Source of the DNA: Squalus acanthias
Taxonomy: Eukaryota
NCBI GenBank assembly: GCA_030390025.1
Contig: CM059446.1
Span: 25,420,001 to 25,484,000 of the forward strand
Direction of reading: 5' to 3'
DNA: 64,000 bases
The translations under genes and the position numbers were made by a program. Shown here one piece after another: positions 27,894 through 44,408 of the stretch (positions are counted from its first letter, which is position 1; the number at the start of each line of letters is the position of its first letter). The notes under the pieces are model-generated. The model searched no databases, was not told the DNA's origin, and saw nothing but the letters and a program-made list of their open reading frames with translations.

Positions 27894-28387
27894 ACCCAAC
27901 CCTAGGTCCAACCCTAACTACAACTCTAACTCCTACTCGAACCCTCACACCAACACTAACTCCAACACAAACCCTAACCTTAACCCTAGCCGAGCCTAAC
28001 TCCAACCGAACCTTAACACCAGCCCAACCCTAGGTCCAACCCTATCTCCAACTCTAACTCCTACTCGAACACTCACTCCAACAATAAGTCCAACACCAAC
28101 CCGGGCTTCAACCGAACTTTACCACCAGCCCAAACCAAAACCAAACCGAACTCCAACCAACACTCCAACCCTAACACCAATCCCAAACCCAGCTCCAACC
28201 CGGGCTCCAACCTTAACACCAACTCCAACTGCAAGCCTAACTCCAACCCTAACTCCAACCCAGCCCTAACTCCAACCTTAACTCCAATCCCAAATTACTC
28301 TAACTCCAATACCAACCCTAACACCAAGCCTAACCCCAACTCCAGCACTAACTCTAACCCCAATCTTAACTCTAACACTAGCCCTAG
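27894..28387. repeat. Telomere-like degenerate hexamer array (CCCTAA/CTCCAA/CACCAA)
   Basis: 6-bp periodicity with several exact CCCTAA units. Confidence 0.85.
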
Positions 28388-28739
28388 ATCTCGCAATACT
28401 TAATGTTCCCAGAATGAATTTTAAGAACAGAACACTGAATGGCGGGGTTCGGTTATTCAAACTTCTGCAACTGACATAAAGCAATCACTTCATTTTATTT
28501 CATGCCGCCCCCCCCCCCCCCCCCCCGGAAATCAATCCTTTTCTATTTGTATCATTATTGGAATAAACATGTTTTTAATGGTTTCCGTTTATGAATGCAT
28601 TTGGTATTGGTTTAATCATTCGGGATTTGAAATGTCGGCTCTGGGAAACGGTGCAGCGTGCTCCGGGTGGGGGCCTGTGGGTGGCTGGCTTTGTATTACG
28701 GTATTTTAAAGGTGTGCGGCGGTAAGATGTTGTAAACCG

Positions 28740-29470
28740 CCCTCCCCTTTAAATGCAGGGTGACTGCAGGCGGCAGCCAATCAGCGTCTCTCTCTCATCA
28801 AAGTAACTGCGGCTATGTCGACTTCCACTCTGTTAGCAGACTGAAGTTTGTGTATTTCTGCCCCCCACCCCCCCACCCCACCCACCCCCGCCCGCCCACC
28901 GTCCTTAACTTTCAGGAAGTTGTTAAACAGGCTGACCACCAGCAGACTTCGAAAGTGCAAATCTCAGAATCTCATTGTGATAGGGAGAGCGGAATAATCA
29001 GTGTCTAATCACCTCTTACCTTCCTTTTGTTACCTGAGTCAGAGGCCGTATGGAAATAGGATAGTTTTTTCAGATCCATCTCCCTAATCGCTCTTACCTT
29101 ACAGTTAAGGAGCGGAGGGTTCAATTTCTTCCACTAATATTCCACAAGTGAATCGCTCCACTTTATTCGCTGTTTCTAATTTCCCCTTTTATCTGTTCAC
29201 AGCTCAGTCGAGCTTTGGTACGTTTACCTAAACCGTTTAGTTTCAGTTAGCTGTAGGTAGGGCGAAAGAATTTTTTTTTTAAAAACCCAGAAAAGACACA
29301 CAGGGTGGGAGGGGGGTGATATCACCACCATACTAATAGGGAAAAGGGGAACAAAACAACAGCAGCAGCGGGGGAAAGAGGCACACGACAAGCCGGCGAG
29401 AAAGTTCAGGAGCCCGGCAAGATTTACTGGGGTGCGTCGGGAAACAGACCATTAAGCAAAGCTCTGTATG
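28740..29470. promoter_or_regulatory. Candidate distal (possibly bidirectional) Pax2 promoter
   Basis: CCAAT box (GCCAATCAG, ~28776), TCF-type ATCAAAG (~28797), GC boxes (CCCGCCCGCCC, ~28887) and CpG retention. Splice donors point outward on both strands. Confidence 0.4.
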
Positions 29471-29492
29471 GCTCAGAGAACAAGGCGATCAG
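29468..29492 (+). CDS. PAX2: Candidate alternative first coding exon of Pax2 (MAQRTRRS+G, 25 nt, phase 1)
   Basis: ATG GCT CAG AGA ACA AGG CGA TCA G|GTAGGC. Phase 1 matches exon 2. No transcript evidence. Confidence 0.4.
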
Positions 29493-29727
29493 GTAGGCTC
29501 GCCCATCATGTCAAACTGTTTATTTGAACTGGGCCAAAGAGGTGTGATTGCTTCTGTGTTCTCTCTCTCTCTCTCTCTCTTTCTCTTTTCTTTCAGTCTG
29601 TGATAAGCTGGAGGGTTGAATTTTTTTTGGTGTGTGTATTGTTGCAAGGAGTTGAGAGTTGGAGTTGCAGTTACGGGGTAGCCGGGGACCGGTGCTATCG
29701 GCAGGTTGCCTCCGGCAGAATTTTAAC

Positions 29728-29944
29728 ATGACAACAGACGGAGCCGAGCGGCCAGGTCCCAGTCCCACTCCCTGCCCAGTTCCCTCACACCTCACCCCAA
29801 GTGCCGGGCGCTCAGCTGATGTTACCTGGCGCGGCTCCGTGTCTAATTATAAAATTGTACCTGTTTTCGTCACTTCAAAGGATAGATACTTAACAGCTCT
29901 GTTTCTGGTCCTTTGCAGAGTGTGTGAGATTGTCCCTATTAAGG
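29728..29944 (+). CDS. PAX2: Second candidate alternative first exon (MTTDGAERPG...VCEIVPIK+G, phase 1), or a micro-exon 29919-29944
   Basis: AACATG start with A at -3, open frame to the consensus donor AGG|GTGAGT, and an acceptor TTTCTGGTCCTTTGCAG at 29918. Confidence 0.3.
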
Positions 29945-31221
29945 GTGAGTGGCGGTACAGTATAACGGATGTATTTTCCTTGTACTGACACTGATTTTTA
30001 TCACGGTTCTATTTCACGTTTTAATAAAGTTCTGCCTGTACTGGTCAGTTAGTTTAGATTTTGCATATTATTCTCATTGTCATTTGCCGTTTCTCGTGCC
30101 TCGGGTGTTTTAGCCTTCACATACCCAACTTGTGATGTCTTTTCTTAAATCATCACTTTTAAGTACATCACTTTAATTATTTCCGTCTGCCATTCGTGGA
30201 TATCAGCTTTTTTACACTCAAATATATTATGAATGCGTTGATTTTAAAATTTCTCTGGAGTTCTGTGATCATTTCATTTTATAAATGGACTTTTGTGACA
30301 TTGTTTTGGCTTTTAACCGGCCGCAACACTCCCCTCCTTCTATTCGACTTATTTACTGAGAAAGAAAACCCATCGCACTGTTCGGATTCCTCCCCTCACA
30401 TGTCCCTGTGAACTTTAGTTAAAAAGGTGGTCAGGAATATAACTGATAGCCCAGGAGTCGCTGCCGGGCCCCTGACAAACAAACCCCAGACTCTGGGGTT
30501 TTAAAAGAATTGGGAGGAAAAAAGAAGATAGTGAAGTATTTTCGCGGTAGGGATTTGACAAACGCCAAGGCACTGGACGGTCGATGGCAGGTCCTCCTTA
30601 AAGTCAAATTAGGAGACCAATACAGAACGGCTGTAATGATCTAATTAATTATGACAAAATTAAAAAAATCAAGTAAAAAATCAATCTCCGATCGTGTCGA
30701 GTGTACAATTAAATTGATTGTCCATCTGGCTTCGTTCTACATCCGTTATGAATATGCAATCTGCACTGTCGCCAAGTCTGGAGCCCTGAGGATTAGTATT
30801 AAAAGCATCACCTTTATTTATTTGTCATTGGGTAATTGTGATTTAGTTTGCGCGATTCGATTGATTTTTTTAAAAAAACAAAAAGAAAAGGTCCAGGAAC
30901 GAAAGAACAAAATTTAAAAAAAAAACATCTCCTTCCAGCGAGCGAGCGCCAGTTGTGAATGTAGAAGTTTTGTGAATGAGTGCGACGGTGGAGCTTTCGG
31001 CCAGACTCTGCCTCGATCGATACTGCAAGCGTTTATTTTGCCTTTTGGTTGCTGCGGCTATCCTCCCGGAGAGAGAGAGAGAGAGAGAGGCCACTCGGGG
31101 TGGGGGATCCCTGCAAATCCGAAACTTCACTTTACACCAACTGCCCCTGGTGGGTCCCGCACATCAGGAAAGGGAGCTAAAACTGTGAAAACACCGGGCG
31201 CACCGTTTATTCAAACAAACC

Positions 31222-31255
<34 letters not shown>

Positions 31256-33539
31256 ATGTGTTCATTAACACAGGTGCCGCTTACTGCATTAAACCCCAAC
31301 ATTATTTAAATATACACACATATATTACAGATATTTTAAGAGATACAGAATAGTGCAAACCGTGTACACAATCTGAGTTTTAAACACCCATAATTATTTA
31401 TATTTAATAAAATACATTGCAATTCCATCCCCGCTTTCCAATAGATCTTACTTTTAATTTCCATTTAATAATGGGGCAATAAATTCAATTTCATTAGTCC
31501 TCCCGAGTTGTGTGGGCCAATATCTCTAAAACGCCAAACTTTTGCTCAATTCATATCTTTTCTTCGAGTAACAAAGTCCCAATTTTAAATCTATTTTCAA
31601 AAAAATGTTGCGTTTCAGTGAAGCAAGCCCGGACGAGTTGGTGTTACGTGACGCTAATTAATTTTAAATAAATACGCAGTCACAGCTGTGATGCAATTAT
31701 TTTCAATGGTGAGCAATCTGGGAATCTTTATTTCTCTGCTCTGTGGCGTTAAACAGCAGAGCAGAGAAATAATATCTTCAAATATGCACAGCGCTCTATC
31801 ACAGCGCTCTGGATATTGTTAGCAATATAGGACTTAAATGCAGGGGCCACATCAGCTCTCGGTTCCTGTCGCCCAGGCGGGCAAGCGTTGCCTGGATCTT
31901 CTTTATTCTAAGGACTGTGATGCGACTCGATAGCAACAATTATTTTTGATTAAACACTAACGAAATCATTCTCAAGCACCGCTTTCCTTTCGACTCCTGG
32001 CCTCACTCAGAAACACAAATTAAATAAATAATTTCCAGCCTGCTCTGTCCTTTTGGCTCCACACGAGGTTCTAATATGATATATTAATTGACACGGTGAT
32101 TGATCTATTGATAGGAGTGATTGATTGACACCCTGCAAATAGAAATAGCTCTTGTCCTTTCAGTTTTGGGTGTTTTTCTCTGGGAACTTTTTAGTCGGAA
32201 ATAAAACTGTACATACTATACATTTTTTTTCTCTATTTATCCAAACATTACTAAACTTCATATGCCATCTCAAATGCCAATACCGTACTCAATGAGCAAA
32301 ACGAGATGCTGTCAAATAAATTCCGCTTATTATGAAATTTCACTATAAATTATCAATTGATATTCTTTAATGAATCTTCTTTCGCTTTCCCCGATTGTTA
32401 AGCACTCGTGTTAAACAAACACGATCTGACAGAAACCGTTCACTTTATCCCGTTTAATGGTACACCGTCGCGCCAATATATCGAATTACATACAATGAAA
32501 TGTTCATTTTTTTTAAACTGCAGCAAGATGGTTAAGAGAGGTTATTGTGGTAAAACTCACACCCACTGGCACCAAGGTCCTACAGAAGCATGAAGGCATC
32601 GATCGCTAAAGCTGCCTCCGACACTGGGAGCTGAGCTGAGCTGAGCTGAGGTAGAGCTGCAGTCTGAGTTTGGATTCACTAACCGTGCACCTGGCTGAGA
32701 GGGGAAGGTGGAAATGCCCAGCGCCCGCCCGTTCGCCACAGGCTGGGCGGGGAGCTATTCCAGCCCGCTCTCCGAATGGGGGCTCCTGGCCCCAGCCAGC
32801 CACCAGGAACCGCTAGCAGCTGATGCTAAAAGACAAATGGATTTCTGTCACTCGCTCAAACGGCTTTTAATTAGGCATCAACTCTCTTTTTTGGGGGTTT
32901 AATCTCTATAATCACCAATTCCCAAATTACATTTTTCCACCAATTATCTGCTAACCAAAACAGTACTCCCGGAGTTAGCGGAAAGAAATCTTTTCAAAGC
33001 CAAACACACTATAAATCCAGAAATGGATTCTATTTCTCCCAAATGAATGACTTATCCCCTCCATATCTGTTAAAGAGCAGTTAGGACAATGTAATTCAAA
33101 TCAGTGGCACATTGTTGAAAGCCTTTATACGTGTGATGCAGGTGTTAAAGAGAATTCAGCCAGGCCCAGAAAGGATCGTTTACATTCTTTCTTAATCGCA
33201 CCTTCTTCATTTAACCCCCTCCCACCCCCCACTCACACCTTTTCTGAGTTTTATATTTAGATCCCATGCGGCAGGTTGGCGATCTATCGGTAATTCACCC
33301 TGTTTGTTGACTTTCAGCTTTTATTCACAATTACTTTCTCTTTAACCGCCTCTCTCCCATTTTCTAACCTGATTTGTTTTCTTATTTGCCCCCTTCCCTT
33401 AACACCGATCCAGGAAAACTGTCTGCTGCAAATCAGAAAATTCAAAAGCTAAAAGTGCGCATCTAAGTTCAGAGGGTCATGCTGGAGCAACTTTCCCCAT
33501 TCCACACATGGCCAATGTATCTGAGTGTGGGGGAGAGCA

Positions 33540-34000
33540 AGACTCTGGGACGCGCGTGTATGTGTGCTGGGTATGTGTGTAATGCCCGTTTCTTTATCTG
33601 AGGGGATGGCCATGTGTGTCTGGATGTGTGTGTACTTGCCATGTGTGAGAGAGAGAGTAAATGTGTTTGGTGTCACCTTCCTTGGTCGAACTATAAATCT
33701 ACGTGCCTGTATGTGTACACACGTTTGCGAACATGCGTGTTTATATATGCATATATCCATCTGTATGGCTATATTTGCGTGTGTGTGTGTGTTTGGTGTC
33801 CGTTTATTCCTTAATTTGAACGTCGCTAGGGTGTGTGCCTATATGTGTGCACATGCGCTTGCTAATATTTGCTCGTCTATATATGTGTGTATATGATTGT
33901 CTCGGTGTGTATATGTGTCTATATGTGTGTGTGTGTGTGTGAATATTATTTTTGTATTTATATTTGTGTGTGTCTGTCTATATTTATTCGTGTGTGCCTG
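33540..34000. repeat. Degenerate TG-rich simple repeat
   Basis: Directly visible. Confidence 0.8.
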
Positions 34001-35125
34001 TCTCGCCTCAGCCCCCACAGTCTTGTTACAGGTGCCTTCAGCACCGAGGCCTTACAAAAAGCCACGACTGGCTCGGTTAACATGACTTGCTAACCTTAAA
34101 CCAGGGTGCAGAATGGTGATGGGCACGGACAAACCCGTATCAACCATCCATTTACACACTGCGGTTTCGTTTTAGCAAATAAATGTAGCTAATACTTTAG
34201 AATAAAATATGCATTACCAGGTCTTTTGGTTATATGTCATAAACATATATTTTATGTCTGGGTAAGAAAATACATTATGGGCATGTCAGCATAGGCTAAA
34301 TGTAGTTAATCCATCAGACTCACCATGTCTGTATTTTTGTGCGTTTTTCTCTGATCTTACATATCACCAAACTTCATTTAATTGTTTTTTTTTTATTTTA
34401 TGAAATAGATTATTTAAATTTGGGGGGGGGGGCACGGGGGTTTATAAAGGAATAAACCCCCCCACAAAGTTATTATAAAGTGTATCTAATACTGAATGTT
34501 GTAGTTACACTCGCATACCCGTTTCACTAACACGGTCCCTACAAAACACCTGGATTTGAATTTGGAATGCAATTTATTTTTTCCCGGGCCGGCCGTATAA
34601 AAAAAATCTTAAGATTTTCTGATGCAGTTTCCGAAAAGAAGTGTTAATTGTGAGGTGGCGAGAAAGTAGCTCTACACGTGTGCTATTAACATTCAAAGCA
34701 GGCAGATGCAAAAGAAGGGAAAATAGGCTATTACCGATGTAGCGTGACCAGATTGGATATAACATTTATTTTATCCCTGCTTCCTCTTTCTTGAACTGTG
34801 CATTGTAGCCAAGCACTGTAAGGTAAGAGAGCAATAATCTTGGGGAGGGGTCCGAGACAAGGGAGGAGGGGGAAAAAAAGAGGGAAAAAAAACATAAGTT
34901 GCTTTAGGCAAAATGTTCTCCGGACTGTGAAATTGCAGCCGATGCCGTTACATTTCACCAGAACGCTTCAACTTCTCCAAAACACGCACATCCAGCAAGC
35001 CCAAACCTAGCCAAGGGCGCACAGAGCACAAACCGGCACCATGTGCCCATTCGTGTCCCGCCAGCACATCCTAATACACTTAGAAATCCGCTTGAGAACA
35101 AGGGCTATTTGTTGGGGATTGATTA

Positions 35126-35308
35126 NNNNNNNNNNNNNNNNNNNNNNNNNNNNNNNNNNNNNNNNNNNNNNNNNNNNNNNNNNNNNNNNNNNNNNNNNNN
35201 NNNNNNNNNNNNNNNNNNNNNNNNNNNNNNNNNNNNNNNNNNNNNNNNNNNNNNNNNNNNNNNNNNNNNNNNNNNNNNNNNNNNNNNNNNNNNNNNNNNN
35301 NNNNNNNN
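35126..35308. other. Assembly gap (further gaps at 39234-39394, 39571-39740, 40014-40299 and 43455-43616)
   Basis: Runs of N, all adjoining TG/CA/TA simple repeats. Confidence 0.99.
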
Positions 35309-36249
35309 ACATGTATGTGTTTTTATGTGCTTATATATATATGTGTGTGCCTGTGTGTGTATTTCTGTATGTGTGTATATATATATATATACATGTCTGT
35401 AATATATATATACACACACATATAAATATGATGAAGCTGATTAAATGTCATTTTCTTCTCGTCGTCCTTCTCTACAAGCAAAAATCACACCTAACCACCG
35501 GTAATGTGCAACTTACACACCGCTCTGACATTGCCTCCCCCACTCCCCTCCCCCCCTCCTCCCCTCACACACACACACACACAGCGCCTCACACTAAAGC
35601 ACACACTATTATCTATTAACAATGCGCAGTTTGCACACACGAACCCTCCAAGTCACAACATTCCACGGGGGTTACCTATAAAATGCATTAAAGAGGGCTC
35701 CAGAAAAGAAAGGCAGGACATCGTGGCAAGTAGAAAATAATTCATCAAAAATAAAAGATTTGTAATTTTCGAGTGAAATACTTTTTTTCAGCGAGAACTG
35801 AAACAGCACTGTTTGAGAAAACACACATATATATTGCAAATTAAATTATACACAAATATTTTCCCATTCATTATCCCAATGTTCCGTCAAATTCTACATT
35901 TAACTTTTAAACGGTCGCCACTTGCTCTGTGACTGAACAGATCCGTTAATTTCAGATCAAAGGCAAAGATAGAGCCGCGGGTAATCCTGTGTGTAAACAC
36001 CAAGAGGCGTCAAATCGAACCAGTATATTTACACGCAACACGATTATAGAGTTAAACAGTGAGCGGACAAGAGGAGTCTGGATAAAACAGATGATCAAGG
36101 GATTTGCCTCTCAGAGATAGTATATAAAATGGATTGCGGATTGACTGCGGCCATCCAGGGGCTGATCTAGAGATTCCACACAGACCCCTCTCTCTCTCTC
36201 TCTGAAAACACACTCCCCTCCCTCCCCACCCCCCCAAAACAAAGTTTAT

Positions 36250-36720
36250 TTGTCTTTAATTTCCGTTGGGCGAGACGGCGCGGCTCTTTGTAGTGCAAAT
36301 GAAGCGAGGGGGGCTTCCTGTGAAATAGGTTAATGAAAGACTGGAGAGCGGGGTTACCCAACCATTACTCCCCCCAAACCCTCCGACTCTCTCCCACCTC
36401 TTCTCAGGCTGGCATCCAAAGGACATGGCACAATTGCACCTCAAATAATAGATTTTATTTCCCTTCCCCATTTGATCGGCGAATCTCTTATTAGTTGGAG
36501 AGGGACTTGCGCCGAAACGCTGGCCCAAAGACCCAAGTGTGGGCGTCAGTCTGCACTGTGATTTGTAATTAATACTGAAAATTATAGATTTTGAAATCAC
36601 TTCATTCCTGCCTCGGATTATGAGTGTACAGTCAATAACACATGGATTTAATACCTGGCATAATCCAGGCTGTGCTGGCTAATCTAGTGTTGTGTGAGAA
36701 CAGTCACAATAGCGCATCGC
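36250..36720. promoter_or_regulatory. Candidate conserved upstream enhancer of Pax2
   Basis: Unique sequence dense in homeodomain sites (GGATTA ~36615, TAATCC 36661, TAATTAAT), about 4 kb upstream of the proximal promoter. Confidence 0.45.
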
Positions 36721-37869
36721 TTTCTAAAGTTGATCTTTCCTGAACGCGATACTAAAAATAAATAAAGCGACTGATGTGCAGTTAATGATTGTTGCCAATT
36801 CCCCTCCCGCGTGGGAGAAAGTTACTTTTTGTTGCGGCTGATGCAAGAAAAACTTATTTTTTTATATAACAAAGCCAACAGTTTGGATGCATCTCCCCCC
36901 CCCCCCCCCCCCCCCCCCGCATTCTCAGTAACTATCACTTTTTAGGAGGTCGGCAGGTCTTAGCAGCGCGGTGAAAATTCTCACAACTATCCACCATTCT
37001 GAGAGTTAAGGGGCCGTTTTACACGGGATAATTGCAGCCAAAGTGACACAGAATGCCGCCACATTGCACTAATTTGTCCTTTTTTGATTCATGATATAAA
37101 TCCGTGTCCCCCTTGCAACTCCGATTTGCAACCTCTCTTTACTGTTTAAGTGACAGCGACTATTCTCTTCGCTTCAGCCCCATTAACATTTCAAGCCTTT
37201 AATAACTCCGGCGCTATATCAAATGAATTTGCACAGATTCGCCTGGAACGTCCTGTTTAACAGAATGACAGTTCCTCCCTCACATTTAGTGTGGTAACGT
37301 ATAGCAGCTAAATCCCACTCTGGATCCTAATATACTTGCTGCTTCCCAGAGGGGGGAAAAATTAGGAAGAAGAACGCAGGAAAAGACTCAGCGACACAGT
37401 TGTAAATGCGCCTTGAAATGCTTCCCCTCTGATTTAATTCAGTCTTTTACTGTTTTGCAATGATTACATTTTTATTTAATCTGACCAGGTGGCTAAATGC
37501 GACTTTCACTGTTTTAAAAAAAATATTAAAAATGCAAGAATTAAGACTGAATTACGTGGGCTGAGCTGATTTGAAAGTATTCTTTAAGTATTGTATTTCA
37601 GATTTCACAAAATGCGCGACTTGAATGTTTTTGAGAGCGGTACAATGTTTGGTTCGGTATTTAAGAGGCTCACCGGCTTGAAGCGCCGGCACATTTCAAG
37701 CAGAGCAGATCAGTGAAAGCGGGAATTGTTTGCAAACTAAAATGACTTCAAGTATGGGAAATGGGGTTGCGGGGCTGGAGGTGAGGTATGGGGAGGCGCG
37801 CGGGGGGGGGGGGAGAGACCTCGCGAAGAAAAGATTTCAATTACAACATTGAGCACACGATGACAGAGA

Positions 37870-38120
37870 ATCGTTTGAAAACAAGAAGCCTGCTGACAGA
37901 TTAAATGATTTGTCACCAAGAAATCAGACGATTGATTCGATTCCAAGAAGAGTCGCAATGGTAAATAGTAAAATTAATGCAATATAACAGCAGCGCCGAG
38001 GCAGGCTTTATATACATATCGGTATCAAATAATCTCTGATTTGGAAGAGATCAAAGGGGGATTTTATTCACCAAATTTATGCCCACAGAGATTTAACAAA
38101 GTTCTGTTGGCCGGTGTTTC
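37870..38120. promoter_or_regulatory. Candidate enhancer with TCF/LEF and Pbx/Meis-type sites
   Basis: TGACAG, GATTGAT and AGATCAAAGG (38048) in non-repetitive sequence. Confidence 0.4.
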
Positions 38121-39209
38121 AGGGAGTTTAAAAAAAAATAAAGTTCCTATTGTGTCCCAGTAGAGAGAGAGAGAGAGCGCTGAGCTACAGTAACTCTGAA
38201 CACTTCCAACTTTGAACTCACCCGAAACCTTTATCGAGCTGATCTTCCCCCGAGAAGTAAAAAGCCAGCGCCACCTACAGCACACTCGGCCACACGGCAC
38301 CTAACTTCCCTCCAACAAACAACATTAAAGAGAGAAAAAAATCACCTCGCAATCACTCCAAACTGAGGGGAGAGGGGGGGGAAGATCATTTCTTTAAAAT
38401 AAAACACAGACATCTGAAAGATTCTGTTAGGAGGACACCGCAAGCAGCGAATATGAAACGCGCATTAACTATCCATTTCCGAAGGATTTCCAATGAGTTC
38501 TGTAACAAGGAATGGTCTTAGCACAGAGTTTAACATTTAGTACTTCTGTCTGGTCACTCCATTCGCCGTGTTATGTGACTGTGAGATTGCAGTGGGTCAG
38601 TTACTTAATGCGTTTACACACCGGTTCGGAGAAAAGTTAAGAGCAAATGTTATTAATTTAAAAAAAAATCAAGGAAACTGGGTGAAGTATGATTTGTAAA
38701 CTCCATTGATGCCCTCAAATACATTTCTTTTTAATGTCTGTCAATCTAATTTCACCTTCCACCCTGTGTGCATAACATACACGCGCAGGTCAGACAGCTC
38801 AGGTGCACTGGCGAGGGGTGGGGGTGGGGTAAAAGAATCCGGTTACACAGAAACATCGGTAAACCGAATCAGAGATACACACAGCATTGCAGAAAGTGGA
38901 GGCACCATAGTTGCCGTTTGATATATAACCTTCTTTGGAAGAGGCTGATTGTAATAAAGAGTCAATCTGTTTAAAACAAACAGATGTACAGGGAGAGACT
39001 GTTCCCGCAGAATTCAATTTGAAAATAGACAGGATTACATATGCTGTGTTGGAGGGGAATACAGCAAGACACGGAGTAAAAGAGGTACAGATATTCTGCA
39101 GAGTTGGTCTTGGCTGAGCTCTGCCTACTTATTCCACTTATCTTGGATCAAACGGGCTATTTCCTAATTCAATTTCCCGAATAAAACCGAATCTCAGAAT
39201 CTGAATTTG

Positions 39210-40013
39210 GGATGTATGCGTGTGCGTGTGAGTNNNNNNNNNNNNNNNNNNNNNNNNNNNNNNNNNNNNNNNNNNNNNNNNNNNNNNNNNNNNNNNNNNN
39301 NNNNNNNNNNNNNNNNNNNNNNNNNNNNNNNNNNNNNNNNNNNNNNNNNNNNNNNNNNNNNNNNNNNNNNNNNNNNNNNNNNNNNNNNNNNNNNTGTGTC
39401 TATGTGAGTGTGTGTCTGTGTGTGTGAGAGAGAATGTGAGATTGTGTGTTTATGTGAGTGTGTGCATGTGTGTGAGAGTGTGAGTGCGTGTGTGTCTATG
39501 TGAGTGTGTGTCTATGTGAGTGTGTGCATATGTGTGTGAGAGTGTGTGTGTGTCTATGAGTGTGTGCCTANNNNNNNNNNNNNNNNNNNNNNNNNNNNNN
39601 NNNNNNNNNNNNNNNNNNNNNNNNNNNNNNNNNNNNNNNNNNNNNNNNNNNNNNNNNNNNNNNNNNNNNNNNNNNNNNNNNNNNNNNNNNNNNNNNNNNN
39701 NNNNNNNNNNNNNNNNNNNNNNNNNNNNNNNNNNNNNNNNTGTCTGTGTGTGTGAGAGTGTGTCTTTGTCTATGTGAGTGTGTCTGTGTGTGTGAGAGTG
39801 TGACTGTCTATGTGAGTGTGTGCCTGTGTGTGTGAGAGAGTGTGTGTGTGTGTCTATGTGAGTGTGTCTGTGTATGTGAGAGAGAGAGTGAGTGTGTGTG
39901 TCCATAAGTGTGTGTCTGTGTGTGTGAGAGAGAGTGAGTGTGTGTGTGTCTATGAGTGTGTGTCTGTGTGTGAGAGACAGTGTGAGTGTGTCTATGTGAG
40001 TGTGTGTCTGTGA
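39210..40013. repeat. TG/AG compound microsatellite directly upstream of the promoter
   Basis: Recurrent GTGTGTCTATGTGAGT units, with gaps. Confidence 0.9.
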
Positions 40014-40339
40014 NNNNNNNNNNNNNNNNNNNNNNNNNNNNNNNNNNNNNNNNNNNNNNNNNNNNNNNNNNNNNNNNNNNNNNNNNNNNNNNNNNNNNNN
40101 NNNNNNNNNNNNNNNNNNNNNNNNNNNNNNNNNNNNNNNNNNNNNNNNNNNNNNNNNNNNNNNNNNNNNNNNNNNNNNNNNNNNNNNNNNNNNNNNNNNN
40201 NNNNNNNNNNNNNNNNNNNNNNNNNNNNNNNNNNNNNNNNNNNNNNNNNNNNNNNNNNNNNNNNNNNNNNNNNNNNNNNNNNNNNNNNNNNNNNNNNNNG
40301 GTGACTCTCAGAGTGGCAGATCACGGGACCTCCTCATTT

Positions 40340-41124
40340 GGGGTCCAATCTGCGTTGGCGAATCACAAAGTGTTGTAATCTATTGCCTTTGTCTGACAAG
40401 TCATCCATCTTTCTAAAGGGGACTGGAGTGGCTGGAATCTGCGCAGGGTTTTAGAGAGAACCACGCAGAGCCCGGGCTTCAGTCTGCACTTCAAAACCTG
40501 CAACCAGCACCAGCAAGTAAGCAGAGACACGCTCTCTGGCTCCATTGGGCTCACCCGCCTCCCTCTGATCCTGCAGACCGGCCTGTTACCACTGGCGCAA
40601 CCAAGGCACCGTCAGTCGCACTTGAGGAGAGAGGGGGACAAGGAAGGATTTGAGTGAAGGTGTAAAGAATTTTCAGAGGACAGTGAATCTTGACAAAACG
40701 ACGCATCGCGCGTTCATTTCCCGTCACTGCGTGTGCGTTTCTTTTCCAAAACAGTCTATAAATCCGAGCCTTGGTTTCCGACTGATGCCTGTTTGCTCTA
40801 CAAACATCTCAGAAAAGTGGACGGACATGCGTCCCACCTGTCCGATTGCCGACCGCTCCCCCATCTCTCCGTGCAGAGGACTGTGAGCGAGGACAAGGGG
40901 CGCCGGTCACTTAACTTTCTTTGCAGGACTAGTTTTGAATTTTCCGGCTCGTCGCCACCAGCTGAAAGGGGGAAAAGGGAAAAAAAAAAGTTTTTTTGTT
41001 GTTTTTTTTGTTGTTGTTTTGTTTTCTTGTTTACAGTCAATGTTTTTTCTGCATTAACGTAAGCCTTTAATTAAAAGACGAGACGGCGGAATCAGCCCCG
41101 TTCATTTCTGTAGCGCTGGCTCTC
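40340..41124 (+). promoter_or_regulatory. PAX2: Pax2 proximal promoter and 5'UTR
   Basis: CCAAT followed by TGGCGAATCACAAAGTGTTGTAATCTATTGCCTTTGTCTGACAAGTCATCCATCT (40356-40410), which closely matches the mammalian PAX2 promoter as I recall it. CpG-rich and directly upstream of the ATG. Confidence 0.7.
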
Positions 41125-41167
41125 ATGGATATACATTGCAAAGCAGATCCTTTCTCAGCTATGCACA
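41125..41167 (+). CDS. PAX2: Pax2 coding exon 1 (MDIHCKADPFSAMH+A, 43 nt)
   Basis: Pax2-specific N-terminus; donor ACA|GTGAGT, phase 1. Not in the ORF track. Confidence 0.96.
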
Positions 41168-42683
41168 GTGAGTAGGCGATTGATTGTGTTTTCTTTAACG
41201 CCAGTAAAACCTATTTTAAGTAAAATATTAGATCTGCAAAGCGCAAATTAATAAACCTATCTATTTATAATTGCTACTGTATTTTTTACACAAAGATATA
41301 ACGAGATACACAGCACTTTCTAACACGGCGAATATATAAAAACAGAAGGGAACGTTTACTTGTCATAGTCACTTCGATCTAAATATACACGCACGCATTG
41401 TTTAGATTAATTTCAGATACACCACGGCACATATTACACCAATATTTGAAGAGCATTAAACAGGCAAAATATAATCTTGCAAACCGAATGATTAACACTC
41501 CCAGGAGTTGCTTATATTTCCAGGGGGTTGAGTGAACTTTCCTCTCCCCCCTCGCACTCCTCGGCTTGATACCAAAGCGAAGATGATTTTCTCGCCACAC
41601 ACATTAACCCAGTTTCTTTCGCCAATGTCCTCACTAATATTCGCGTTGTCACGCTGTTATTGTCAGAGATATACAGGTAGGGCTTTTGCGGATTTGTCTG
41701 CTCCCCGGCTTCCAGCTGTTCGCATTTGCTTGTTAAAGTCGGTAGACATTCGAGATTAAATTTAAAAAAAAAGAGACAGCTCGAATTGTAATAAAAATAA
41801 TGTTCTCTGGTCCTTTTTATTGTAAACAGATTTATGAAGTGCCGCCTTATTCCGCTCTCTAATTTCACCGTTAACCACGTGTAGGGCCCTATAGTACTGG
41901 TAGAAATCTCTTAAACACCATAAACCACAGCACTGACACACTGCAATAACATACACACAGATCTATTTATATATAAGTAGCGAGATATAAATATACAGAT
42001 ATATATATATTGTACCATATTTAATTAACAAAAATGACTATTTAAAATCATACTAACCTCGACAGAATGCAACACAAGGCTGAAAAAATACAAATTGATT
42101 CCTATTCTGTTATTGTTTCAAAAAATGAACCCGGGGTAAATATATATATATATATATATGAAAAGACTCGCTAACAGATATTACAGCGCAAAAGGTTTTT
42201 AAATTATTTATTCTAATCTTTCCTTGATGATGCGGCCTTCAAATAATCCGTAATCTGAGATATCAAAGCTAGTCTGAATTATTGATGTTGAATCTGATAG
42301 TTTTGCCAGACAGTAACTTCAGCCCACATATCGGAGAGCCGAGGATAACTGCGAATAAACAAGTATCATTAGCAAATATTTACCCCGTGCTCCCAGTATT
42401 ATTTTCTAGGAAAAATTGGCAAATATTTTTTAACTCGATTTTTTCCCATTACAATTGAGTAAAATAAGAACCAAGATTAAATGTTTTTAGAGGATAAAGA
42501 TTGAGAGAAAGAGAGACTTAAAAAAAAATCTGTTCCAGCTACTCCTCGAAAAATCCATATTTATAATCCTCCGACATGGGTCGATTTGAGGGCAATTGAG
42601 AGTTTGGCGAAGTCGCCTCGCATCAATAAGTTACTGTTTGAAGTGGAGGAATTGTGCTCCGCCGAAATACCACGGTCACTCCT

Positions 42684-42714
<31 letters not shown>

Positions 42715-44242
42715 TCCAAATCACCTCGAACAAGTACATTAGCAACAAGAAGACAATCGTGTGCACGTGAAGGCTCCTTGTCTTGTTTCAGAGAATGACA
42801 CGCTCTTGTAAATATACCGGGGCGTTTGATATAATTCTTCCCGTTCGCTATAAAACAGCATATCGACAATCAATAACACATCATTTTTACGCATTCCCTG
42901 CTTTTTTAAAAAAAAACTGTAACATACAAGTACAATGAATTATTATTAAGGACTAGCTGCATGAAATGTATGCATAGCAAATATTTAAATCTGAACATTT
43001 GGAACACGTAATTAATTAGTGTCGAGTATATGCGTCCCTTGTACATATATATTAACGTATGTTTTCTGTTCATTAACACCAGTATATATATGCATTTTAT
43101 ATGTCATGTAGAAACACATCTATCTATATATATATATATATATATATAAGCCCTTCTCACTTCATAGTGCCGGTGCTGAAATTGCCTATCATTTTGTTGT
43201 CTTTCAAATCTTTTCTCTCGATGAAATTGCTAAGTCTCCTTCAGAGCAGGGCAATGAGAGAATGCTTAACCCGTGTACCCCCAGTAAAGGGGATACACAC
43301 ACACAATAGGAGAAGCAGAGGAAACCGAGACAGAGGAATTTTCAGCGGGCTCTATGAAGCCCTGCAGCGAGGGAATCCTGCACTGTTGTAATTTGCTGCT
43401 TTATACACCATTTCCGCACAAATACCAGCGTGCCGTTCAACAAACAGACTGTCTNNNNNNNNNNNNNNNNNNNNNNNNNNNNNNNNNNNNNNNNNNNNNN
43501 NNNNNNNNNNNNNNNNNNNNNNNNNNNNNNNNNNNNNNNNNNNNNNNNNNNNNNNNNNNNNNNNNNNNNNNNNNNNNNNNNNNNNNNNNNNNNNNNNNNN
43601 NNNNNNNNNNNNNNNNACACACACTTAGTCACACACACTCACACACCCACACACACACACACCCACACACACACACACACACTCACTATTTAATCAAAAC
43701 CCGTTCCAGAATAAACATGGAACCCAATTCAAAGTTTTATACAGTTTCTTTTTTTTAACTCATATCATTTTCCTTTTTCAAAGTATGTTGAATAATTCTG
43801 TTAGTTTAAACTGCCACGTCATATTGTAATAGATACAGTAATTTAGTCGGATGATATCAGAGATTTTGTTTTATTAGAAAAATATATGTGCTTTTGTTTT
43901 CCTTAAAAGACAGAATGAATCAGTAAATTAAAATAATATAGTCTTAAAAGATGGCATTTCATGTGCCTTTTAATGTAATGTGTGAAGTTAAATGTGTATC
44001 GGTATGCTTTGCTACACGTGTCCACATATATGTAATTTCTTTATTCCATGCTTTCGATTTCTTTTTTCCTCTCGTTCTTTTTTTTCTATTCCCCCTCCTT
44101 CCCCCCCTCTCTCCCCTGTTCCATTTTTTTGCTTTTTTTTGCCACTCCTCCCTTTCTTCTTTTCTCCCCCCTTCTCTTTGTTTTTTCTCTCTTTCAGGTT
44201 GCAGTTCTACCTGGGATGAGTTCAGTTGTGTGTGTTTTGCAG

Positions 44243-44408
44243 GGCATGGGGGTGTGAATCAGCTGGGAGGAGTGTTTGTGAATGGCAGGCCCCTTCCTGA
44301 CGTGGTGAGACAGCGCATTGTGGAACTGGCACACCAGGGAGTCAGACCCTGCGACATCTCCCGGCAACTGCGGGTCAGCCACGGCTGTGTCAGCAAGATA
44401 TTGGGCAG
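44243..44408 (+). CDS. PAX2: Pax2 exon 2, paired domain N-terminal (PAI) part, 166 nt
   Basis: (R)[54 protein letters not shown](R); TTTTGCAG acceptor, AG|GTGAGG donor. Confidence 0.98.

What the first reader, a model, noticed from the sequence alone, without database searches (positions are those of the whole stretch)
29468..29498. Hidden 25-nt phase-1 coding exon ~11.6 kb upstream of canonical Pax2 exon 1
Seen: ATG GCT CAG AGA ACA AGG CGA TCA G|GTAGGC, i.e. 8 codons plus 1 nt and a good donor, behind a CpG-containing UTR-like stretch. Phase 1 is what exon 2 needs, giving MAQRTRRSG-HGGVNQ or MAQRTRRSG-CSSTW...-GHGG. From memory (unverified), human PAX2 has an annotated variant from a promoter roughly 10 kb upstream with a similarly tiny first coding exon. 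Inference: a distal-promoter Pax2 isoform with a basic N-terminus may be ancestral to jawed vertebrates.
Basis: partly seen in the sequence, partly recalled or inferred. Interest (0 to 1): 0.7.

Follow-up and report, generated by a model that had tools for sequence, protein, structure and literature searches.

The report
Ancient upstream exon of shark Pax2
A tiny exon 11.7 kb upstream of the shark kidney-and-brain regulator gene Pax2 is spliced into the gene's untranslated leader rather than onto its DNA-binding domain, matches the front exons of its sister genes Pax5 and Pax8, and likely acts in sharks as a translation-dampening upstream reading frame, whereas birds and mammals have it annotated as an extra protein start.

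Summary
In 3 of 3 RNA-like runs laid (2 studies), contigs leave the genome at donor 29492 and resume at 40419, inside the exon-1 leader, 706 nt before the normal start codon. They do not resume at exon 2. Contig lengths fit retention of all of exon 1, so the exon's ATG likely opens an 87-codon upstream ORF and the protein stays canonical Pax2.

The exon is the orthologue of an annotated amniote exon (mouse RefSeq MEQRASRA, bird MAQSSGRA), which is joined in frame for a +31-residue isoform. In this genome it is the likely ohnologue of Pax5 exon 1A and the Pax8 start exon: all three end in CGATCAG|GTA, found once per locus. A hagfish gene has both start types. The ancestral two-start design therefore survives in Pax2, rewired.

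A minor direct exon-2 join is not excluded; translation is untested. The scan earlier noted alternative starts in an invertebrate Pax2/5/8 (unchecked).

The parts
29119..29492 (+). Distal exon (E0), the part covered by one spliced contig; true 5' end not mapped (separate contigs reach 28938-28963)
   Evidence: table 8: X2 record 16 (29119-29493), X1 record 7, X5 record 24; X5 record 22, X1 record 6
29226..29244 (+). 19-nt leader element matching (18 of 19) the leader of Pax5 exon 1A in the same genome
   Evidence: local score 33; best of 396 other tiled 400-nt windows 30
29468..29492 (+). ATG + 8 codons + 1 nt (MAQRTRRS); ATG context weak at -3 (T), G at +4
29493..40418 (+). GT-AG intron of 10,926 nt removed in RNA-like contigs
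   Evidence: table 7 (same loose end in X1, X2, X5); (those letters occur once in the window, at 40420, behind an AG)
40419..41167 (+). Exon 1 used as a 749-nt internal exon (706-nt leader part + 43 coding nt); its 5' end is shown, its full retention is inferred
   Evidence: contig-length test
40419..40657 (+). Second part of the predicted 87-codon upstream ORF opened by ATG 29468; TGA at 40655-40657
40785..41057 (+). Three further upstream ATGs (40785, 40827, 41040) with short ORFs of 33, 19 and 5 codons
41114..41124 (+). Acceptor-like site 11 nt before the main ATG that would put E0 in frame; use not seen, not tested
41125..41167 (+). Canonical Pax2 start (1B-type exon), phase-1 donor at 41168
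   Evidence: the 394-aa model is 98.5% identical over 205 aa to a catshark protein and 87% to mouse Pax2
44243..44408 (+). Exon 2 (first paired-box exon); an alternative in-frame acceptor at 44198 is untested
29098..29250 (-). Exon of a spliced antisense RNA overlapping the 5' part of E0 (joined from 32561 and on to 27204)
   Evidence: X5 record 23; (GT-AG on the minus strand); one run only

Best explanation
The 25-nt exon is spliced, in shark RNA-like contigs, into the untranslated leader of Pax2 exon 1, where its start codon is predicted to open an 87-codon upstream reading frame that likely lowers output of an otherwise normal Pax2 protein. It is the likely surviving copy of the upstream ('A-type') start exon of the ancestral vertebrate Pax2/5/8 gene, which had two start exons in series, A then B. 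Pax5 kept both as alternatives that each join the paired-box exon. Pax8 kept only A. Pax2 makes its protein from B and kept A, but A now splices into B instead of over it. In this shark the acceptor is 706 nt before the main ATG and out of frame. In birds and mammals the annotated acceptor is 68 nt before it and in frame, which adds 31 residues. SHOWN: donor use and the 29492->40419 join; sequence matches to the amniote peptides and to the Pax5 and Pax8 exons. INFERRED: retention of all of exon 1, a promoter just upstream of E0, ohnology, order of events. UNTESTED: translation of the upstream frame, repression, tissue-specific use.
For:: X1, X2 (study P1) and X5 (study P2) each have a 2.8-3.2 kb contig that stops at 29492/3 with an identical loose end; depth drops from 34-94 to 0.7-2 past the donor, while run X6 spans the site unbroken; the loose letters map once, to 40420, behind AG; frame gives TGA at 40655; a single genomic copy, so no retrocopy in this assembly explains the join; with all of exon 1 and the mapped exons, the X1 and X2 contig ends fall in a poly-C tract of the last exon (49 of 2,600 positions qualify); 0 of 19 internal-splice models and 0 of 76 in-frame two-step models do; 46 of 70 stored proteins carrying the amniote leader extension have an M-x7 peptide in front of it, including curated mouse NP_001355674.1, a marsupial and birds; the shark has no AG at the -68 position and a stop in that frame; shark Pax5 has METNGSALRSVRS 11,826 nt above exon 1B; shark Pax8 has MSQSTGRS (8 codons + 1; 23 of 31 nt identical to E0); the 10-mer CGATCAGGTA occurs exactly once in each of the three regions (64, 80, 80 kb, both strands), at these exon ends; the Pax8 structure 2k27 has R7-S8-G9 before the paired domain; hagfish P0015 and P0232 share 440 of 440 downstream residues but start with a B-type and an A-type peptide.
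Against: The runs are only guessed to be RNA, are assembled contigs that drop rare variants, and table 7 hid 18 rows. No reads could be laid over exon 1-3, so the path beyond the first 30 letters after 40419 rests on a length argument. That argument does not fit X5 (end at no obvious break) and could be mimicked by compensating small changes. The 8-codon, phase-1 spacing is kept in shark, bird, mammal and Pax8, which is more than an out-of-frame start codon needs and hints at an in-frame product somewhere. The Pax8 candidate was picked with the amniote E0 peptides as query, and no leader similarity to Pax8 was found. The 19-nt Pax5 match is only modestly above background (33 vs 30). No TSS data; acceptor-like sites at 29105 and 29203 leave open that E0 is sometimes internal.
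Confidence: 0.66

Rival explanations
1. One reading: E0 also, or in some tissues mainly, splices straight to exon 2 (or to the acceptor 11 nt before the main ATG), giving a Pax2 isoform with a short basic N-terminus like Pax5A and Pax8; the out-of-frame join is only one product.
For: Joins to 44243, 44198 and 41114 are open and in frame. The 8-codon phase-1 layout and the terminal Arg-Ser codons are shared with Pax8 and Pax5 1A, which do join the paired exon (PMC2504290 passage for Pax5; 2k27 register for Pax8). Amniotes use the ATG in frame.
Against: Not listed in 3 of 3 RNA-like runs. 0 of 247 stored proteins begin with 8 residues joined straight to the paired exon, though that set is biased to amniote Pax2/Pax5 and holds almost no shark entries.
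Confidence: 0.22
2. E0 is kept only as a promoter and leader exon. Its ATG is a leftover, mostly bypassed by leaky scanning; the conserved exon end reflects splice signals, and the upstream frame and the amniote +31 isoform are neutral by-products.
For: Weak start context (T at -3). Positions 4-5 of the amniote peptide vary freely. The upstream-frame peptide has no credible homologue (two repeat-like hits only).
Against: ATG, Gln at position 3 and the distance to the donor persist from shark to mammals and in Pax8. A neutral ATG would be expected to decay (inference).
Confidence: 0.1
3. Chance pattern or assembly artefact.
For: 75 similar ATG...GT patterns exist in the window; the runs are not on record as RNA.
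Against: Same GT-AG join in three runs of two studies, unbroken DNA in a fourth; matches to amniote and paralogue exons.
Confidence: 0.02

Closest known systems
PAX5 exon 1A / exon 1B two-promoter system (PMC9456430 and PMC2504290, passages seen)
   Same: Upstream ATG-bearing phase-1 exon about 11.7-11.8 kb above a B-type exon in both shark genes; same last 10 nt across the donor; shared 19-nt leader element.
   Different: PAX5 1A splices over 1B to the common exon 2 and gives another N-terminus. Shark Pax2 E0 splices into the B-type exon's leader, out of frame. No TATA[AT]A box was found in 28400-29470, whereas human PAX5 1A is described as TATA-containing.
Annotated amniote Pax2 isoforms with a 31-residue extension (mouse RefSeq NP_001355674.1 = P0165; predicted isoforms in many mammals, a marsupial and birds)
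   Same: 8-residue M-[AE]-Q-x-x-x-R-[AS] start peptide from a separate exon, joined into the exon-1 leader rather than to exon 2.
   Different: The amniote acceptor is 68 nt before the ATG and in frame. The shark lacks that AG, has a stop in that frame and uses an acceptor at -706.
Pax8 first coding exon (PDB 2k27; shark Pax8 locus)
   Same: 8 codons + 1 nt ending Arg-Ser-G; 23 of 31 nt identical to E0.
   Different: In Pax8 it is the only start found and is in register with the paired exon; no B-type exon was detected in 80 kb upstream (best scores 2-5 against 68-84 at Pax5).
Split upstream ORFs made by alternative 5' exons (general class; established knowledge, not from a call)
   Same: An ATG in a distal exon read into a downstream leader, stopping before the main ORF.
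   Different: Here the ATG is a former main start codon of the gene family and is still in frame in other lineages.

Membership tests
A-type start exon of Pax2/5/8 (Pax5 1A, Pax8 first coding exon) | ATG-opened short coding exon with a phase-1 donor | tested here: met
A-type start exon of Pax2/5/8 (Pax5 1A, Pax8 first coding exon) | Lies upstream of the B-type exon and the paired-box exon | tested here: met
   11,657 nt above the B-type ATG; Pax5 11,826 nt
A-type start exon of Pax2/5/8 (Pax5 1A, Pax8 first coding exon) | Sequence homology to the paralogous exons | tested here: met
   shared 10-mer once per locus; 23 of 31 nt with Pax8; 18 of 19 nt leader element with Pax5
A-type start exon of Pax2/5/8 (Pax5 1A, Pax8 first coding exon) | Splices directly and in frame to the paired-box exon | tested here: not met
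   3 of 3 RNA-like runs join 40419; rare forms not excluded. Homologous by descent, but not shown to work as an alternative N-terminus.
A-type start exon of Pax2/5/8 (Pax5 1A, Pax8 first coding exon) | Has its own promoter / transcription start | tested here: inconclusive
   contig cover fades between 28938 and 29308 but contigs cannot show starts; no TATA box, one CCAAT and GC boxes at 28.7-28.9 kb
Amniote Pax2 +31-residue isoform | 8-residue start peptide from the distal exon | tested here: met
Amniote Pax2 +31-residue isoform | In-frame acceptor 68 nt before the main ATG and an open 23-codon linker | tested here: not met
   no AG at that position and an in-frame stop
Amniote Pax2 +31-residue isoform | Syntenic genomic position of the distal exon in amniotes | not testable with these tools
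   no vertebrate genome other than the window's own is held; only protein sequences were seen
Regulatory upstream ORF | ATG and stop both upstream of the main ATG on the spliced mRNA | tested here: met
   join shown; stop at 40655 by translation, given retention of exon 1 (inferred)
Regulatory upstream ORF | Is translated and lowers main-ORF output | not testable with these tools
   needs ribosome profiling or reporters

The most novel reading that the evidence does not exclude
All three vertebrate Pax2/5/8 genes inherited a two-start design older than the hagfish-shark split, and Pax2 turned the upstream start exon, the one that makes B-cell PAX5A and PAX8, into a dosage dial. In sharks it is an out-of-frame upstream ORF on a major transcript; in amniotes a new acceptor recoupled it into a little-studied longer PAX2 protein. 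The exon would then be an overlooked mutation target in a haploinsufficient disease gene.
Probability: 0.4. Interest if true: 0.72.

Novelty: new variant of a known kind. Interest (0 to 1): 0.55.

Why it matters
PAX2 is a dosage-sensitive developmental gene (renal-coloboma syndrome; PMC7084737 passages). A distal start exon conserved from sharks to mammals, whose ATG is either out of frame or adds 31 residues depending on the acceptor, is a candidate control point for PAX2 dose and a region that usual exon-1-onward screens may omit (inference). It also gives a clear case of how one duplicated feature was divided after the vertebrate genome duplications: both starts in Pax5, one in Pax8, a rewired one in Pax2. 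The amniote isoform is already in RefSeq. I found no paper on its homology to Pax5 1A / Pax8 or on a shark form, but the key older papers (Busslinger 1996; Goode and Elgar 2009; zebrafish and Xenopus Pax2/5/8 papers) were not held or not seen and may state part of it.

Tried and rejected
No listed holder is on record as RNA; I used the GT-AG joins, not the label. 4 of the 10 listed runs were laid (X1, X2, X5, X6), on 28600-30000 only; a second laying over exons 1-3 gave no result, so direct evidence ends 30 letters past 40419. Joins to 44198/44243: not listed. Homologues of the upstream-frame peptide (40421-40654): none among longer proteins (33 candidates); two repeat-like hits in 1.84 billion representatives, treated as chance. 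In-frame rescue by a second splice inside exon 1: 47 of 803 donor-acceptor pairs are open, but all 76 resulting models put the contig ends away from any C/G tract. Leader similarity of E0 or Pax5 1A to Pax8: none above background. Similarity of the Pax2 exon-1 leader to the Pax5 1B leader: only the coding part matched. A distinct CpG island at E0: not seen. The X5 contig length fits no obvious break point. Papers: PMC39201 and a Nature Communications DOI not held; PMC2532684 and PMC3759438 passages say nothing on first exons; a search for a named Pax2 antisense transcript listed nothing. No supplements were read. No look-alike notes on related DNA.

Full report
Observation. The sequence is as described: ATG at 29468, eight codons plus one base, donor CAG|GTAGGC at 29493, 11,657 nt above the canonical ATG at 41125. 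The gene is Pax2: a 394-residue model built from exons mapped in the own genome is 98.5% identical over 205 residues to a catshark protein, 87% to mouse Pax2 and 77% to mouse Pax5. The pattern alone is common (75 in the window), but this is the only instance passing my strong-donor pattern and the best match to amniote Pax2 start peptides. The surrounding CpG level is not special within the locus.

Splicing. Eight public runs hold the stretch, five of them guessed to be RNA. I laid four of the ten listed. In X1 and X2 (one study) and X5 (another study and organism label), a contig of 2,831, 2,969 or 3,235 letters follows the genome up to the donor and then leaves it with the same 30 letters. 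These occur once in the window, at 40420, behind an AG. Run X6, from a related organism (48 other letters over about 1,400), spans the site unbroken; no difference is listed inside 29468-29497, which at that divergence is not significant alone, and four rows were hidden. The region is single-copy in the assembly. So the exon is real, but the join is 29492->40419, in the leader of exon 1 and 706 nt before the main ATG.

Reading frame. Read through 40419, the ATG gives 87 codons and stops at 40655; three shorter upstream ORFs follow before 41125. With all 749 nt of exon 1, acceptor 44243 and the mapped exons, the X1 and X2 contigs end at offsets 787 and 780 of the last exon, inside a poly-C tract, a natural assembly break; 49 of 2,600 positions qualify. 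None of 19 internal-splice models and none of 76 models that would restore the frame put the ends there. X5 is not explained by this test, and compensating small changes could mimic it, so this step is inference. The upstream-frame peptide has no credible homologue.

Orthologue in amniotes. Annotated Pax2 isoforms of mammals, a marsupial and birds carry 31 extra residues: an 8-residue peptide (mouse RefSeq NP_001355674.1 MEQRASRA, bird MAQSSGRA) followed by 23 residues read from the exon-1 leader. Of 70 stored proteins with that leader stretch, 46 have an M-x7 peptide in front; the other 24 switch to other sequence at the same residue, several to what looks like a read-through polypyrimidine tract, marking a splice site 68 nt before the ATG (the set was collected with a bovine query, so it is biased). 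The shark leader aligns to those 23 residues but has an in-frame stop and no AG at that position.

Paralogues. The own genome holds Pax5 on C1 and Pax8 on C17. Pax5 has a perfect 1B exon and, 11,826 nt above it, a phase-1 micro-exon METNGSALRSVRS, the top hit for a fish 1A peptide though not for bird, frog or mammal 1A queries, where an open stretch with a poor donor scored higher. Pax8 has MSQSTGRS, eight codons plus one, 30.5 kb above its paired exon, 23 of 31 nt identical to E0 (five positions forced; next best 18), and no detectable B-type exon. All three exons end in CGATCAG|GTA, and that 10-mer occurs once in each region searched. The Pax8 candidate was found with E0-like peptides, but the solved Pax8 chain independently shows R7-S8-G9 before the paired domain. 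Pax2 E0 and Pax5 1A also share 18 of 19 nt in their leaders (score 33; background maximum 30). A hagfish gene has a B-type and an A-type start on an identical 440-residue body (database gene models), which puts the two-start design before the hagfish-shark split.

Mechanism. The simplest account: the ancestor had start exons A and B, each able to join the paired exon, as described for human PAX5 (PMC9456430 and PMC2504290, passages). In Pax2, transcripts from the A promoter run through the B region, where an acceptor paired with B's donor defines B as an internal exon, so A joins into B. In the shark the join is out of frame. The ATG has a weak context, so some ribosomes would scan past it and others would be diverted into a long upstream frame after which re-initiation is usually poor (established knowledge of scanning, not tested here). 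The result would be canonical Pax2 at lower yield per mRNA. In amniotes an in-frame acceptor gives a longer protein. The main argument against a purely out-of-frame role is that the 8-codon phase-1 spacing has been kept, so I leave about 0.2 for a meaningful in-frame shark form.

Novelty. The amniote isoform is annotated, and the A/B design is known from PAX5. Nine literature searches listed no paper on the Pax2 distal exon, its shark form or its homology to Pax5 1A and Pax8; older subscription or scanned papers were not available and may cover part of this. An earlier unchecked note of this scan reports alternative first exons in an invertebrate Pax2/5/8. I rate this a new variant of a known kind, interest 0.55.

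Noticed in passing
window minus strand 32561+, 29250-29098, 27204-: Spliced antisense RNA with canonical GT-AG sites overlapping the 5' part of the distal exon, in one run (X5); a possible Pax2 opposite-strand lncRNA.
   Followed up: partly
window 44198: Second in-frame acceptor 45 nt above the usual exon-2 start; fish and hagfish proteins show comparable short inserts at this junction. Use in shark untested.
   Followed up: partly
window 29105 and 29203; Pax8 locus 76 and 193 nt before its ATG: Acceptor-like sites upstream of the ATG in both A-type exons, so each may sometimes be an internal exon behind a non-coding one.
   Followed up: no
window 29634-29944: Low-depth unspliced contig in X1 inside the first intron; pre-mRNA, DNA or a small separate transcript.
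   Followed up: no
G000:C23, Pax2 intron after window 58344: The intron behind exon 5 is about 125.6 kb long; the gene spans about 235 kb from the distal exon to the last exon.
   Followed up: no
window 28134-28380: Degenerate 6/12/18-nt tandem repeat (CTCCAA/CCCTAA-like) about 1 kb upstream of the distal exon.
   Followed up: no
window 20000-52000: Broad CpG-retaining domain (o/e mostly 0.5-1.05 against mostly 0.15-0.5 in 1-20 kb) covering both Pax2 start regions.
   Followed up: no
proteins P0141, P0143, P0171, P0180, P0183, P0187: Some ruminant and bat models insert a further 22-25 residues between the 8-residue peptide and the exon-1 leader, suggesting an extra cassette exon.
   Followed up: no
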